Assembly: GCA_046861395.1 (NCBI GenBank)
Contig: JBHHUC010000023.1
Location: 1 to 33,158, forward strand
Length of the DNA: 33,158 nucleotides
Direction of reading: 5' to 3'
Source: Fidelibacterota bacterium
Lineage (GTDB): Bacteria; Fidelibacterota; Marinisomatia; Marinisomatales; JABMOV01
Shown here: positions 15,001-27,000 of the stretch, in pieces
How the letters are laid out: every line of letters starts with the position of its first letter
How positions within the stretch are numbered: the first letter of the stretch is position 1
Position numbers: made by a program

Positions 15001-18000
15001 ATAGAAAAATTTGATACAGATCATTGACGACGATTTGTAATTTTATAGTAAATTTAAGTTCAATAATTAGTACAAGGACTAATTTAAGTCAGAAAAGGTA
15101 GATGGGTGAATTTTGAAATACGTCCATAATATATTGTTACCACTTGCGGCACTGAGCCTTGTTGCCATAGTGTGGTGGATTTTGTTTGAAACGGGGAATT
15201 ATTATGAATTGCCCATTGGGGAAAGGCCCCATCACGCGGTGCATCGCGAATTTAGACCCGGGGGTGTGGTTGGCCATGGACTGGGCATCGCCGGTAGTAC
15301 CATGATTATTCTGTTGCTAGTCTATTCGGCCCGGAAACGAATCAAACGATTTCGTAAATGGGGAAAACTCTCAAACTGGTTGAACTACCATATTTTTCTC
15401 GGTATTGCCGGTCCCATTCTAGTTACCTTTCATACTTCATTCAAATTTAATGGAATTGTTTCCATCGCATACTGGTCCATGGTCGCAGTGGCTTTGAGTG
15501 GATTCATCGGGCGGTATATTTATGTGAAAATTCCACGACGGATCAGTGGTAATGAAATCACAGCCAGTGAGCTAAATCAGCAACAGGATGAACTAACCAA
15601 ACAACTGGTAGTCGAATATTCCCTTTCCGCTGAACAAATTGAAAAACTGGATTCCATTGCCCAAAGTGCTGAAATCAACCGCCGGGGACTGTTAGGTGTT
15701 TTTATTTATTTATACCTGGATACCATCGGACGGATTCCGTTACGGCAAAAAATGCATGGTTTGGCTAAGGAATTACACTTATCCCGAGGGCAGATTCATC
15801 ATTTTTACCAACTGTTACGAAAGAAAATCGCCTTATCGCGGCATATCGCTTTCTTAAGCAGTGCCCAGAAATTATTTCATTACTGGCATGTCATTCACCG
15901 GCCTTTTGCCTATACGATGATCGTTATCATGATTATTCACACTATTCTGGCCATTACGTTTGGCTATACCTGGATCTGGTAATATGAGTACTGAGTGGAT
16001 TTTTACCTGGATTCTGGGCGGAATCATTATCCTCTTTTTCCTGATTCCCTATATAACAAGGATGCGCAAGAGAGAAAAGCAGCATCGTTCCCGGTTGGCC
16101 GAAACACGGTCCAAGGGCCAGGACAAGGCATTGATGCAACACCCAATCATCAATCAATCCCTGTGTATCGGGTGTGGCATTTGCGTGGATTCCTGTCCCG
16201 AGGGCGACGTGCTGGGATTGATCAATGGAAAGGCGACTATTATTCATGGCAGCCACTGTATTGGACATGCCAAATGCGCCGAGGCTTGCCCTCTGGGTGC
16301 CATTGAAGTCGGTCTGGGAGATATCAGCCAGCGACAGGATATTCCGCGGCTGAATGAGTCCTATGAATCCAACATCCGAGGGTTGTACATCATTGGTGAA
16401 TTAAGTGGGATTGCTCTGATAAAGAATGCCATATCGCACGGTAGTATCGCCGTGGACGATATTGCCAAAAAGAAAACAGATCATTCATTTGACTATGACA
16501 TTGTCATTGTCGGTGCCGGGCCATCAGGATTGTCTGCCGGTTTACGAGCCAAAGAATTGGGATTGAAATTTGTTATTATTGATCAGGATGAACCCGGCGG
16601 GACGATCCTGCAGTACCCGCGGAAAAAACTGGTTCTGGTTCAGCCAGTGGCCCTGCCCTTGTATGGTACACTGAAAAAAATGGAATATTTCAAGGAAGAA
16701 CTCCTGGATATTTGGCTTGATGTGATTTCTCAGGAAAAATTACCACTGGAAACACACCAGAAATTGACAGGAGTACTTCCGGATGGCGAAGGGTTTATTG
16801 TCCAAACGAATAAATCAAGTTATAGAACGCAGTTTGTCATCCTGGCACTGGGTCGTCGCGGTACACCGCGAAAACTGGGTGTAAAGGGTGAAGAATTGAG
16901 CAAAGTAATGTATAAACTGCTGGATGCCGAAACCTATAAACATACCAAGGCCCTGATTGTCGGTGGGGGAGACAGTGCAATTGAGGCAGCCATGGGATTA
17001 TCCTATCAGGAAGGGAATGAAGTAACGATTTCATATCGTAAGGCAAACTTTTTCCGCTTAAAAGCCCGCAATGAAGAACGTCTGGGGAAAGCCATAGAAG
17101 AGGGACGACTCAATGTCCTGTTTGAAAGTAATGTGAAGGAGATCAAGGCAAAGGAAGTGCTGCTGGAAACAAAAGAAGGTTCCATAACACTCGCAAATGA
17201 TTATGTCTTCATTTTCGCCGGTGGTGAATTACCCTTCCCCTTACTGAATAGCATCGGAATCGATTATGGCCAGTCCATCCAACCGGGGGCAAAATGATTG
17301 TCCGTTATTTGTTTCTTCTGGTCATTCTCAGCCAGTTATTTGGACAATTCTCGCCAGGACCCTTATCAAAATATCATTCATTCCTGGAAGGGAATTCCAA
17401 TTGTACTCAATGTCATGAATTGCGACAAAAGAAATTGTCGTCAGGGTGCCAGGATTGTCATACGCCACTGAAGATCAAGCTGACGGAAAAAAAAGGGTAT
17501 CATGCTGACAAAAACAAGAATTGCGGCGAATGCCACTCCGATCATAATGGTAAGGATTTTGAGTTGGTATATTGGCCTAAGAATATTAAAAATTTTGATC
17601 ACAGTGAAACAGGGTATGACCTGACAGGAAAACATCGTGATTTGAAATGCAATAAGTGTCACAATGTGGACCTGATCAAAGGCCGGGACATCATCGATTG
17701 GGCTGCTAAATACTCCGACTATCCTATTCTGGACCGCACGTTCCTGGGGCTGGAAACGGCATGCGCTTCCTGCCACGTGGATGTACATCAAAAAGAAGTT
17801 TCCAATGATTGTGAATCCTGTCATACGACCGGTGACTGGAAACAGGTTGTCAAGGATTTTGATCATGAAAAAGCGAAATACAAGCTGACGGGAAAACATT
17901 TAACCACGGACTGCGTAAAATGCCACACAAAGCATGAAGACCGCGATCCTGCCGTGATGCAATTAACCGGCTTGCAATTTGAAAATTGTATTCCTTGTCA

Positions 18001-24000: not shown

Positions 24001-27000
24001 CGGAAACCTGACCCACCGTTTTGGTAAACGCTTCATTCTGAATACGTCCATTGAATATAACAATGAAGCGGCATTTTCCATCCTCTATCTGTACGCCGGA
24101 GCAACCTACCGCTTTTAAGGGATAGGCTTTTCAGCGGTTCATCAGTCCAAGATAGAACCCGCTGCCCAGGCCGTACAGAACAATATCCCAACCGTCGGAA
24201 GTAAAATGGGCGGAGTAGCGGGGCAGGATTCCTTCAAACACAAGGGCGAGAATGAATCCAATGCCAATGACGTGTGCTGTGGGTAGTATGAAGTCCCGTT
24301 TAATCACCAGTCGTTGGACTACCAGTATGATGGTGCCCAGGATGGGTACGGCGAACAGATCGTCGATATAGGGCGCAATCAGCGAAGGAACCAGCGCCGG
24401 TGTAAGATAATGAATCCCGACGACTATGATCATCCCTGAAAACAGAAGGATGGTTCGCCGGGGAAGAATCATATATTGAGAAAAGCAATAACGGGAAGCA
24501 AAATAATCAGCATTCCGGCCGTAATGACGGTGGAACGGTTCCAGATATTTTTCATATTAAATCCTAGTCGCAAGTGGGGGATTGTTTTTCTGGTACGGTG
24601 AAGGCTCGGGATGTAAATCCCGGCGATAGTATTCAAATGTCTTGCCAGTACCTTGCCAGTTTTCCACCCGGTTAACAATTTGTACATCCCCCGAAAATTT
24701 TGATGATACTCCTACCTTAACATGTCCTGTAATATATCGGATTCCTTCCCGCTTTTTCGCCCAACTGATATAAACCCGTTTTAACATTTTGGCATATCCA
24801 TTGTCTTTATAGTCCGACATGATCACAAAAGCATAGGTGTATAATGTGTTGCGTTTGCCGAAATTGGGATCAGTATGAACCCAGGGCTCATTGCTCATTT
24901 CTTCAATGGGTACACCGATGATGTATCCGATGATTTCATTCCGGTAGCGGGCAATGAACGGCAGGGAGCCGGGTTTGTTGAAATAGCGATGGATGGTGGT
25001 ATTGGTCAATACGGCTTTTTCACCGTACTCTTCCGCCAGATGTTCCGAAATATCAATCAAGGCGGGGAAGTCCTCCTCTCCGATATGATTCAATAATTCG
25101 ATCTGGAAAACACCGCTGGAGGCAATGACCCGGGTCTGAGAGCGGTTTTCACTGTATAATGATAGTTGTTCCATCCCTAAAAATTACAGTTGATTCTGCA
25201 AACCGGAGACAAGGAAAATTATTAATTTCCAATTACGGTGTTCCGTACTACTGATCTGGTGAAGTTTCTGTGTTATGCGTTCCATAATTCCGGTAAAGTG
25301 GTCGTAATTTTAATAAATGAATTCGTTCACGCAACGCCTCTCAGCGCGCATTCGGAAATCACAGTCCTGGCTCTGTGTCGGTCTTGATATATCCCCGGAA
25401 GGATTAGGTGCGGCAAATCCTTCATTGCAAGAAGTAAAAGATCACTGCCGGAGAGTGATTTCCGCCACCCACGAATTGGCCTGTGCCTATAAGCCCAATC
25501 TGGCGTTTTTCGAACGGTGGGGGGCCGATGGTTTTGTCTGGTTGTCAGAAGTCCTGGCCGAAATTGGACCGGGTGTGATTAAGATCGGCGATGCCAAACG
25601 GGGCGATATCGGGAATACGGCACAACAATATGCCATGGCTTTTTTTGATCATTTTCAGTTTGATGCTATAACGGTAAACCCCTACATGGGAGAGGATAGC
25701 ATCAAACCTTTTTTAGACTTTCCGGGGAAAGGTGTTTTTATTTTAACCCGAACGTCAAATCCGGCAGCCGCCTTTTTCCAGAATCATAGTGAAGAGGGTA
25801 GCCCACTTTACATCAGTGTGGCTAAGGTATGCCAGTCCCTGAACCAAAATGACAATATCGGGTTAGTCGTTGGCGCCACGGCCCCGGCGGAGTTGAAACA
25901 AATCCGGGATTTAGTACCTGGACTGCCCTTGTTGATCCCGGGTGTCGGAACCCAGGGAGGGAACCTGAAAAGCAGTCTGCTAATCGGTAATAGCCAGGGG
26001 GATGCCATCATTAATGTTTCCCGGGGCATTGCCTTTGCCGGAGATATGTCGGAACGCGAAATCAATCGGGTCGCCCGACGCTATGTGGACCAAATGAGGA
26101 GATTAATGGATGAAGGATGAAGCTGCTCATCAGCTATTTGTAAGAACAGGCGCTTTACTGGAAGGACATTTTATTCTGTCTTCCGGTCGTCACAGTGCGA
26201 CCTATTTTCAATGCGCCAAACTACTTCAGTATCCCGAGTATTTGGAACAAATGGCGCAGGAGATTGTTGTCCATTTTTCTTCCCATTGCATTGAAACCGT
26301 AGTGAGTCCGGCCATTGGCGGGATTGTAATCGGCACGGAAGTGGGACGTCAGCTGCGGGCCAAAACCATCTTTGCGGAACGGCAGGAAGGCCGGATGGTC
26401 CTGCGGCGGGGTTTTACCATTTCTCCGGGTGAAAAATTATTGATTGTCGAAGATGTCATTACCACCGGCGGTTCGGTAAAGGAAGTTATGGAATTGTGTC
26501 GCCATTATGGAGGGAATATCATCGGTGTAGGCGTCGTCGTAGATCGCAGTAACGGAACGGTCAGACTCCATGAGAATCAGTATGCTGTGACGCAACAGGC
26601 CACCGAATCATACGAACCGGATAACCTGCCGGACTGGTTGGCCGCATTACCACCGCAGAAACCGGGAAGCCGAAACTAACATTTTTTTGAAGGAGAGATA
26701 GATGATTGGAAATATAAGCCTGATTTTCCTCGCTGTATTACTGGTTGTGGGGTGTACCAGTGAAGAAAAAGTAGGAGTGATATCAACCCGTTTTGGTGAT
26801 ATCATTGTGGAATTCTACCCTGATCTGGCACCTAAGCATGTGGAGAGTTTCCAGACGCTGGCCGAGGAAGGATATTATAACGGAACAATATTTCACCGGG
26901 TGATACCTGGATTTGTCATTCAAGGGGGTGACCCGAACACGAAAGGAACGAATAAAGCGTTATATGGCATGGGGGGACACGCCGGGAAATATTATGGCAT

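What a model noticed while it worked through the whole genome (the two positions that open the first line are those of the whole stretch)
15170..24118. Porin-cytochrome conduit with 20-, 31- and 8-haem cytochromes in a Marinisomatales genome
Six co-directional genes, five of which the tables leave without any family, form a likely outer-membrane electron conduit. They are g00517 (270 aa, weakly cytochrome-b/ferric-reductase-like membrane protein), g00518 (Fer4 + FAD/NAD oxidoreductase), three paralogous multihaem c-type cytochromes with 20, 31 and 8 CxxCH motifs (g00519 542 aa, g00520 942 aa, g00521 273 aa), and g00522 (512 aa). g00522 is predicted to be an outer-membrane beta-barrel of about 22-24 strands ending in Y-R-F. 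In relatives the 8-haem cytochrome gene always lies directly before the barrel gene, as in MtrA/MtrB- or Pcc-type porin-cytochrome complexes. The genome thus has the parts for extracellular electron transfer, [...]
Evidence so far: CxxCH counts by script. Pfam at whole-protein level: Cytochrome_C7 at E 2e-23 (8 stretches), 1e-30 (10 stretches) and 3e-9; MtrC/MtrF domain II/IV at E 8e-8 and 7e-10; g00522 has no family at E<=1. BLASTP groups g00519-g00521 as paralogs. The AF2 model of g00522 from 8 sequences has pLDDT 73, a small N-terminal beta domain (19-94), then long antiparallel strands from 126 to 511. g00522 homologs are in 32 of 101 Marinisomatales genomes searched at E<=1e-15. In 7 of 7 loci read, an 8-CxxCH ORF (271-294 aa) lies directly upstream of the barrel gene, with a further multihaem ORF (5-7 CxxCH in the part held) upstream of that. 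Papers: 0 hold Marinimicrobia + multiheme + extracellular electron tran [...]
(Added by a program. Inside this text positions count along the whole contig: contig position 1 is position 1 of the stretch shown here. "Call 12" and the like, gene names such as g00115 and contig names such as C1 are that model's own, and its searches are not shown. The text may have been shortened before it was handed on; [...] marks where a part breaks off. The agent that wrote the report below was given it as the finding of a first reader that could run no searches.)

Follow-up and report, generated by a model that had tools for sequence, protein, structure and literature searches.

The report
Flavoprotein-fed 65-haem envelope electron wire
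Six adjacent genes most likely build an electron wire running from inside this bacterium to its outer surface; it is a variant of a predicted but never tested system called PCC3, with an added iron-sulfur flavoprotein and an extra short cytochrome that models inside the outer-membrane pore.

Summary
The cluster is real, but it is neither MtrAB-type nor without precedent. It is a divergent relative of the predicted, untested PCC3 conduit (He et al. 2017).

- g00517 carries both WX3HX13H motifs and SGXXG, the PCC3/4 membrane-protein signature.
- The 20-haem protein is 30% identical to the Leptothrix cholodnii PCC3 cytochrome.
- The 22-strand barrel matches PCC3 porins by profile-profile comparison (98.8%; 17 control proteins at most 2.2%). 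Gene order is kept.

Corrections: g00517 probably starts at 15113. Non-canonical motifs make the '31' and '8' proteins probably 35- and 10-haem. The short cytochrome precedes the barrel in 25 of 29 relatives, not always.

Additions to PCC3: a membrane-anchored Fe-S/FAD NAD(P)H-type flavoprotein (fused to the membrane protein in 6 planctomycete loci), and the short paralog, which models inside the barrel lumen (score 0.62, best control 0.00; mark reached by 116 of 157 solved, 2 of 215 mismatched pairs).

Best reading: NAD(P)H to Fe-S to two b-haems to c-haem chain to the outside. Direction, substrate and location are unshown. This scan noted the same system before on other DNA, including Marinimicrobia.

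The parts
15113..15982 (+). g00517: five-helix inner-membrane protein of the PCC3/PCC4 IMP family, probably two b-haems (His93/His262 on the cytoplasmic side, His107/His276 on the periplasmic side; sidedness inferred), with a ~110-residue helical insertion on the cytoplasmic side
   Evidence: W-x3-H-x13-H at residues 89 and 258, SGxxG at 129. All four His invariant in 84 homologs. 29% identical, E 1.6e-31, to the IMP beside the L. cholodnii-type 24-haem gene. AF2 pLDDT 94.
15960..17297 (+). g00518: N-terminal membrane anchor, two Fe-S cluster motifs (the second CxxHxxCxxxCP), then a TrxR/Bdr/FNR-fold FAD domain with an NADP(H)-type site and no CxxC; no export signal seen; start may be the ATG at 15984
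   Evidence: Pfam Fer4 + Pyr_redox_3. Best PDB relative is Bdr/YpdA, E 2.5e-42. Cys only at residues 69-110; GGGDSA in 97 of 99 homologs. Fused to the IMP in 6 planctomycete loci.
17294..18922 (+). g00519: 20-haem c-type cytochrome of tri-haem repeats, signal peptide without lipobox Cys; homolog of the PCC3 periplasmic cytochrome
   Evidence: 20 CxxCH, 44 His, no free Cys. 30% identity over 591 columns, E 2e-55, to the L. cholodnii protein P0265, whose 656-aa form ACB33809.1 fits the 24-haem, ratio-27 PCC3 protein of He et al. Fig. S1.
18929..21757 (+). g00520: acidic cytochrome with 31 canonical and probably 35 haem motifs; positional equivalent of the PCC3 'extracellular' cytochrome; ends in an acidic linker and a basic/aromatic tail
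   Evidence: D+E 137, K+R 30. Haem number varies from 13 to 61 among homologs.
21758..22579 (+). g00521: short paralog of g00520 (its first ~7 and last 3 haems), probably 10 haems; models inside the barrel
   Evidence: BLASTP 39% to g00520 residues 20-226 and 34% to 691-911. Separate clade from the long paralogs in a quick tree, SH-aLRT 92 and 91. Complex score 0.62 vs best control 0.00.
22580..24118 (+). g00522: 22-strand outer-membrane beta-barrel with a small N-terminal beta domain (residues 19-94); remote homolog of PCC3 porins
   Evidence: AF2 pLDDT 92, pTM 0.75. hhalign against 17 PCC3-type porins: 98.8%, E 8e-17, 391 columns; controls. 811 relatives at E<=0.001 among 50%-identity representatives.

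Best explanation
The six genes encode a PCC3-family conduit that spans the whole envelope and is fed directly from cytoplasmic NAD(P)H. Proposed path: NAD(P)H to FAD to two Fe-S clusters of the membrane-anchored flavoprotein g00518; across the inner membrane through two b-haems of g00517, like a split NOX/ferric reductase; along the 20-haem periplasmic wire g00519; through a cytochrome threaded in the 22-strand barrel g00522; to an outside acceptor such as a metal oxide, humic quinone, conductive mineral or partner cell. The barrel is plugged by the N-terminal ~7-haem module that g00521 (10 haems) and g00520 (35 haems) share. Shown here: genes, motifs, homologies, synteny, fusion, and model-level support for g00521 in the barrel. 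Inferred: cofactor binding, locations, subunit order, direction and acceptor.
For: PCC3 kinship: IMP motifs as defined in PMC5566968 (passages) are present and in 136 of 142 IMP hits; cytochrome homology; porin homology, with 17 other outer-membrane-like proteins of the genome at probability 2.2% or less; same order as S. lithotrophicus Slit_1446-1449, IMP/periplasmic/extracellular/porin. Co-inheritance: in 201 genomes of the phylum, IMP in 61, barrel in 58, both in 57 (kin are not independent). Of 58 GTDB loci found through the flavoprotein, 47 hold a separate IMP, 6 a fused IMP, 50 a cytochrome with 10 or more motifs, and 43 the barrel. Five Marinisomatales-order loci add an FNR-fold NAD-binding reductase in the string. 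Complex model of g00521 with the barrel: score 0.62, best of 3 controls 0.00; the mark was reached by 116 of 157 solved complexes and 2 of 215 mismatched pairs (counts only rough here, as my own alignments were used); runs agree in at least 50% of contacts; partner pLDDT at least 68. Contacts alternate along 14 of 22 strands, as for lumen-facing residues. System I cytochrome c maturation genes are in the genome.
Against: No PCC3 has been tested functionally. In ES-1 proteomes the extracellular cytochrome Slit_1448 was 0 in all 8 conditions listed. The porin homology is remote and one-sided: the PCC3 profile does not find g00522 as a single sequence (E 0.45). The flavoprotein is near PCC3 in only 25 of 80 proteobacterial-type loci (many contigs short) and is not in the 5.4 kb upstream of the L. 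cholodnii-type gene (L135). Predicted interface residues of g00521 are no more conserved than the rest (0.38 vs 0.37 among 17 short paralogs; 0.28 vs 0.29 against g00520). The complex pass may partly echo the solved MtrAB complex (recalled). None of the cytochromes has a lipobox, so surface exposure is unshown. The IMP fold search gave only Z 7-8 matches, within the noise range for helical bundles.
Confidence: 0.55

Rival explanations
1. Same envelope-spanning conduit, but the membrane protein exchanges electrons with the quinone pool, as He et al. proposed, and the flavoprotein is an accessory or a Bdr-like disulfide reductase.
For: Published hypothesis for the IMP (PMC5566968 passages). The flavoprotein's closest solved relative is bacillithiol disulfide reductase, which shares the fold. 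Many PCC3 loci show no flavoprotein in the DNA held (55 of 80).
Against: The flavoprotein is fused to the IMP in 6 loci, is membrane-anchored, and carries a ferredoxin domain; its TIGR04018 score is 161 bits against a cut-off of 340. The His spacing suits a haem pair crossing the membrane. The two entry routes need not exclude each other.
Confidence: 0.2
2. The wire runs inward: it takes electrons from reduced minerals, sulfides or a partner cell and delivers them to NAD(P)+ or to the respiratory chain.
For: PCC3 was defined in iron oxidisers and is expressed in Sideroxydans. The genome has an ACIII-like cluster beside an oxidase-like cytochrome c gene on C136, judged from ORF sequences only.
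Against: NAD(P)+ reduction through b-haems needs a very low-potential donor (established thermodynamics). Named carriers include Bacteroidota genera known as heterotrophs (physiology recalled). A 61+20-haem porin cluster, probably this family but not tested by sequence, was found in a Lentimicrobium genome recovered only with conductive carbon and read as an electron exporter, though the same paper doubts a direct role for that lineage.
Confidence: 0.15
3. Not a through-membrane wire: the barrel admits a soluble substrate (metal chelate, oxidant) or exports a protein, and the cytochromes are periplasmic capacitors or reductases used for metal uptake or redox defence.
For: The barrel's best structural matches are 22-strand TonB-dependent transporters, Z about 19-21 at rmsd 4-5. 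There are no lipoboxes. NOX/ferric-reductase chemistry commonly serves metal assimilation (established knowledge).
Against: The barrel has no plug-sized domain in its lumen position (N-domain 19-94 plus a linker), and the structural matches are at 6-12% identity, expected of any barrel this size. The complex model fills the lumen with cytochrome. Some 65 haems far exceed what assimilation would need.
Confidence: 0.1

Closest known systems
PCC3 porin-cytochrome cluster (He et al. 2017, PMC5566968; Gallionellaceae survey PMC9900912), predicted and untested
   Same: IMP with two WX3HX13H motifs and SGXXG; homologous periplasmic repeat cytochrome; second giant cytochrome of variable haem number; homologous barrel; same gene order.
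   Different: Adds the Fe-S flavoprotein between IMP and first cytochrome and a short paralog before the barrel. Barrel is 512 aa with a small beta N-domain, against 745-950 aa with SPOR/TPR-like regions in PCC3 porins. Periplasmic cytochrome has 17/20/23/26 motifs in this branch, against 21/24/27. Not proteobacterial.
MtrCAB / MtoAB / PioAB
   Same: A probably decahaem cytochrome gene next to a barrel gene, with the cytochrome modelled inside the barrel.
   Different: No PF11854 match; TIGR03508 22.9 bits vs cut-off 192 for g00521; 22 strands against 26 in MtrB (recalled); no lipoprotein cytochrome; its own inner-membrane module instead of CymA.
NOX / ferric reductase (FRD) transmembrane electron channels
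   Same: Two H-x13-H motifs on helices 3 and 5, paired with a cytoplasmic FAD/NAD(P)H protein, fused in some lineages; an FNR-fold reductase gene joins in 5 loci.
   Different: PF01794 only E 0.032, below cut-off; the partner is a TrxR/Bdr-fold flavoprotein with Fe-S clusters; the output goes to c-type cytochromes.
Unnamed porin-multihaem clusters noted in Bacteroidota genomes (PMC13013709; PMC6344600; PMC8258643)
   Same: PMC13013709 reports adjacent 61- and 20-haem cytochromes with a porin in Lentimicrobium; loci L059 (Lentimicrobium, 20+28) and L067 (20+61) have this layout.
   Different: Identity with this family was not tested by sequence; in the passages read, those papers did not link the clusters to PCC3 or mention the flavoprotein.

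Membership tests
PCC3 | ~300-aa five-helix inner-membrane protein with SGXXG and two WX3HX13H motifs | tested here: met
   Motifs; five long helices in the model; E 1.6e-31 to the L135 IMP.
PCC3 | Periplasmic repeat cytochrome of about 21-27 haems | tested here: met
   20 haems, aligned end to end with the L. cholodnii 24-haem protein, 30% identity, E 2e-55. Repeats inflate such scores. Location inferred from the signal peptide.
PCC3 | Second, larger cytochrome following the first (10-85 haems) | tested here: met
   g00520 is the best match among the window's three cytochromes for most second cytochromes in PCC3-type loci. Its C-terminal module differs from theirs.
PCC3 | That second cytochrome is extracellular | not testable with these tools
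   No lipobox; the published assignment is itself a prediction.
PCC3 | Homologous porin downstream | tested here: met
   hhalign 98.8%, E 8e-17 over the whole barrel; window-family HMM hits porins in 22 of 80 loci at E 5e-3 to 8e-15. Remote: the reverse single-sequence search fails.
PCC3 | Four-gene order IMP, periplasmic cytochrome, extracellular cytochrome, porin | tested here: met
   Same order as Slit_1446-1449, with two extra genes inserted.
PCC4 | Three periplasmic cytochromes with 4, 5 and 10 haems | tested here: not met
   20, 35 and 10 motifs against the definition.
MtrAB/MtoAB/PioAB | Barrel of family PF11854 | tested here: not met
   No hit at E<=1 for g00522 or 13 other barrels of its family; none in the genome, 94% complete.
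MtrAB/MtoAB/PioAB | DmsE/MtrA-family decahaem (TIGR03508) | tested here: not met
   22.9 bits (g00521) and 59.9 bits (g00520) against cut-off 192.2.
MtrAB/MtoAB/PioAB | Structural likeness to MtrB | tested here: inconclusive
   Top rows are generic 18-24-strand barrels.
Geobacter Pcc (OmbB/ExtB/ExtE) | Porin homologous to OmbB | not tested
   No OmbB sequence was in hand. NCBIfam gave no family for g00522, but I did not confirm that it holds an OmbB model.
NOX/ferric reductase transmembrane domain | PF01794 above cut-off | tested here: not met
   14.7 bits vs 28.
NOX/ferric reductase transmembrane domain | Shared fold with haem-b membrane proteins | tested here: inconclusive
   Superoxide oxidase 5oc0 Z 7.7 (rmsd 3.5, 135 aligned), STEAP1 Z 7.4 (6.6, 156), cytochrome b561 Z 7.2 (3.8, 129), FdnI Z 6.8 (3.8, 133), tied with unrelated bundles.
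Bdr/YpdA bacillithiol disulfide reductase | TIGR04018 above cut-off | tested here: not met
   161.1 vs 339.9 bits.

The most novel reading that the evidence does not exclude
This is a quinone-independent wire that couples cytoplasmic NAD(P)H directly to the cell exterior, spread over more than ten phyla. In this lineage one barrel has two interchangeable plugs from an old gene duplication: a 10-haem short-reach form and a 35-haem form whose extra ~25 haems stand out from the surface as a single-chain nanowire ending in the same tri-haem cap.
Probability: 0.3. Interest if true: 0.85.

Novelty: new variant of a known kind. Interest (0 to 1): 0.55.

Why it matters
Characterised Gram-negative conduits draw on the quinone pool (established knowledge). 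A conduit fed from NAD(P)H would let fermenting or heterotrophic bacteria dump reducing power onto minerals, humics or partner cells without a respiratory chain. The module occurs in about 30% of the genomes searched in this phylum (57 of 201 hold both IMP and barrel) and in Bacteroidota, Ignavibacteriota, Calditrichota, Acidobacteriota, Gemmatimonadota and Planctomycetota. That links several 'unclassified' porin-cytochrome clusters to PCC3. It also points to cultured carriers (Arenibacter sp. F20364, Thermobacterium salinum TK19130) in which a PCC3-type system could be tested.

Tried and rejected
Locus search of GTDB genomes with the barrel alone found no relative. MtrB was not among the top 50 rows of any barrel fold search; that absence does not exclude a likeness. 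PDB sequence searches with barrel and IMP profiles found nothing significant. Foldseek on the IMP model gave no match at E<=0.001. The ESM Atlas gave only unnamed clusters, commonest in Bacteroidota. No IMP relative on plasmids. Promoter and terminator scans were at chance level: 23 vs 19.8 +/- 4.6, and 10 vs 9.2 +/- 3.0. Sequencing runs: no RNA holder listed; the 4 DNA holders are one hydrothermal-vent metagenome sample that may be the source of this DNA, so they are no independent evidence of habitat; no reads were laid. Interface conservation test was neutral. The careful tree did not finish; only the quick tree is cited, with supports under 95 at the key forks. He et al. Supplementary Tables 3 and 4 gave only their legends, so the published PCC3 genome list could not be checked for non-proteobacterial members. 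PMC13013709 supplements held no 'Lentimicrobium' text, with one file unreadable; bioRxiv supplements were closed. Paper searches: PCC3+porin-cytochrome 18 papers, 11 listed; Marinimicrobia+multiheme+porin 1; Melioribacter+multiheme+porin 11; Marinisomatota+extracellular electron transfer 4; Marinimicrobia+extracellular electron transfer+cytochrome 0; PCC3+Bacteroidetes+multiheme 1; porin-cytochrome+Ignavibacteri+ferredoxin+thioredoxin reductase 0. In the passages I read, none describes this cluster in Marinisomatota or the flavoprotein link. Only open-access text was searched.

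
Full report
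Observation. The six ORFs lie on the + strand, abutting or overlapping, from 15113 to 24118. CxxCH counts are 20, 31 and 8. Every Cys in the three cytochromes belongs to a CXnCH motif, which gives 20, 35 and 10 probable haems, with His counts (44, 80, 23) enough for bis-His ligation. The odd motifs in the C-terminal module are plain CxxCH in Bacteroidota and Ignavibacteria homologs, which argues that they bind haem. g00521 matches both ends of g00520: it is the long protein without its middle repeats. The membrane protein probably starts at 15113, as its close homologs are 287-290 aa.

What it is related to. He et al. 2017 (PMC5566968; I read the abstract, matched passages, section 16, supplementary Table 6 and the legends of Tables 3, 4 and Fig. 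S1) define PCC3 as a porin, two giant cytochromes and a ~300-aa membrane protein with SGXXG and two WX3HX13H motifs. g00517 has all three motifs, and 136 of 142 IMP hits in my loci have both WX3HX13H motifs. A protein search reached the Leptothrix cholodnii 24-haem cytochrome, whose 656-aa form fits the paper's figure. g00519 aligns with it at 30% identity, E 2e-55. That protein brought in 80 metagenome loci. Of these, 72 hold the IMP, 22 a porin hit by the window-family profile, and 25 the Fe-S flavoprotein; many contigs are too short to show more. An alignment of 17 such porins matches the window barrel family at 98.8% probability, E 8e-17, over 391 columns covering the whole barrel. As controls, 17 other proteins of the genome picked as likely outer-membrane proteins by their C-terminus (shallow profiles, 1-9 rows) scored 2.2% or less, and two other cytochrome-adjacent barrel candidates scored 5% and 33%. 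Against this, the PCC3 profile does not recover g00522 as a single sequence (E 0.45), so the kinship is remote. The gene order equals Slit_1446-1449 of Sideroxydans ES-1 (table passage of PMC11429942). PCC3 remains functionally untested (passages of 10.1101/2025.02.27.639646; PMC9900912).

The barrel. With 137 sequences the model reaches pLDDT 92 and shows 22 strands. Structure searches return generic large barrels, TonB-dependent transporters first (5t3r_D Z 20.7, rmsd 4.0, 356 aligned, 10% identity; similar). There is no PF11854 match. The complex of barrel residues 17-512 with g00521 residues 18-273 scored 0.62 against a best control of 0.00. That mark was reached by 116 of 157 solved complexes and 2 of 215 mismatched pairs, counts that hold only roughly with my own alignments. 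Runs agree in at least 50% of contacts and partner pLDDT is at least 68. Barrel contacts alternate along 14 of 22 strands and lean to the outer half and outer loops (33 outer, 16 inner, 29 in outer loops, 4 in periplasmic turns). Cytochrome residues 46-195 make the contacts. This is the region shared with the start of g00520. I saw contact lists, not coordinates, so the orientation (C-terminal cap outside) is an inference. Interface residues are not more conserved than others, which is neutral.

The inner-membrane end. The IMP model (pLDDT 94) has five long membrane helices. By the positive-inside rule His93/His262 lie cytoplasmic and His107/His276 periplasmic (inference). Fold searches were inconclusive: haem-b membrane proteins appear at Z 6.8-7.7, tied with unrelated bundles. 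g00518 has one N-terminal anchor, two Fe-S motifs and a Bdr/TrxR-fold flavin domain with GGGDSA and a following basic motif of the NADP(H) type (motif meaning recalled). It has no Cys beyond residue 110. Of the 80 GTDB loci returned for it I counted 58 (L051-L107, L117) and dropped 22 weak or partial matches. Among the 58, 47 hold a separate IMP and 6 planctomycete loci hold a flavoprotein-IMP fusion; 43 hold the barrel. Five order-level loci insert an FNR-fold NAD-binding reductase; the window's genome has no BLAST hit to it.

Distribution. Barrel homologs occur in 40 of 151 order-level genomes. In 201 genomes of the phylum, 61 have the IMP, 58 the barrel and 57 both. Families f13, f25 and f27 had none (0 of 18, 0 of 20, 0 of 27); the f13 genomes listed are about 1 Mb. 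The short paralog precedes the barrel in 25 of 29 order-level loci. Among the 43 GTDB loci with a barrel it appears in only 2, a Caldithrix and a Neomarinimicrobiota genome. A quick tree of the shared N-terminal module (83 rows) puts the short and long forms of this order in two clades (SH-aLRT 92, 91), suggesting an old duplication.

Literature and earlier notes. Searches are listed under Tried and rejected. [quoted passage not shown] Passages of PMC6344600 and PMC8258643 mention unnamed clusters in Bacteroidetes. Passages of PMC5317091, PMC7399161, PMC7382037, PMC8470020, PMC5492636 and PMC6137239 did not describe this cluster. This scan's earlier notes reached the same PCC3-plus-flavoprotein reading on eight other stretches, one in Marinimicrobia. 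I had written that reading before seeing them, and they are not independent support.

Verdict. A real, conserved operon and a new variant of a known but untested kind. The chance that it is an envelope-spanning electron conduit of some direction is about 0.9; that it exports electrons from NAD(P)H as described, about 0.55. Interest 0.55.

Noticed in passing
G000:C39 5009-9935 (L215) and G000:C71 1-2139 (L217): Two more candidate porin-cytochrome strings in this genome: a 389-aa family-less protein before 11-, 7- and 17-haem genes (the last NapC-like), and a 411-aa family-less protein between an NrfD/Fe-S module and a cytochrome with at least 10 motifs. The C71 protein weakly matches the window barrel profile (33%, E 5e-4).
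   Followed up: partly
G000:C88 2882-12396 (L216): String of 13-, 12-, 5- and 4-haem cytochromes with two NHL-repeat proteins, a TPR protein and a 675-aa family-less protein, next to a two-component system.
   Followed up: partly
G000:C30 2080-3410 (L219): A short 192-aa paralog of the membrane protein beside an 8-haem cytochrome with no porin; same sizes as the porin-less clusters in He et al. Supplementary Table 6.
   Followed up: partly
window 15960-17297: The flavoprotein looks circularly permuted: the FAD-binding motif that ends TrxR/Bdr proteins sits at residues 137-147, before the first GxGxxG. Support is by motif and weak HMM stretches only. The second Fe-S motif has His in place of a Cys in 95 of 99 homologs.
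   Followed up: partly
window 21670-21757: g00520 ends in an acidic linker and a basic/aromatic tail that recurs in its orthologs but is absent from the short paralog; possibly an export or anchoring signal.
   Followed up: no
window 22634-22861: The barrel's N-terminal beta domain weakly resembles FlgT_C in 4 of 14 family members scanned (E 5e-4 to 0.08).
   Followed up: no
window 28255-30691: DsbD and a TlpA/redoxin-type gene lie 4 kb downstream; they could supply thiol reduction for cytochrome c maturation.
   Followed up: no
L037 9684-11311; L048 4189-5128; L091 13199-14962: The periplasmic cytochrome (L037) or the barrel (L048, L091) reads in two or three pieces in these relatives: frameshifts, broken genes or assembly errors.
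   Followed up: no
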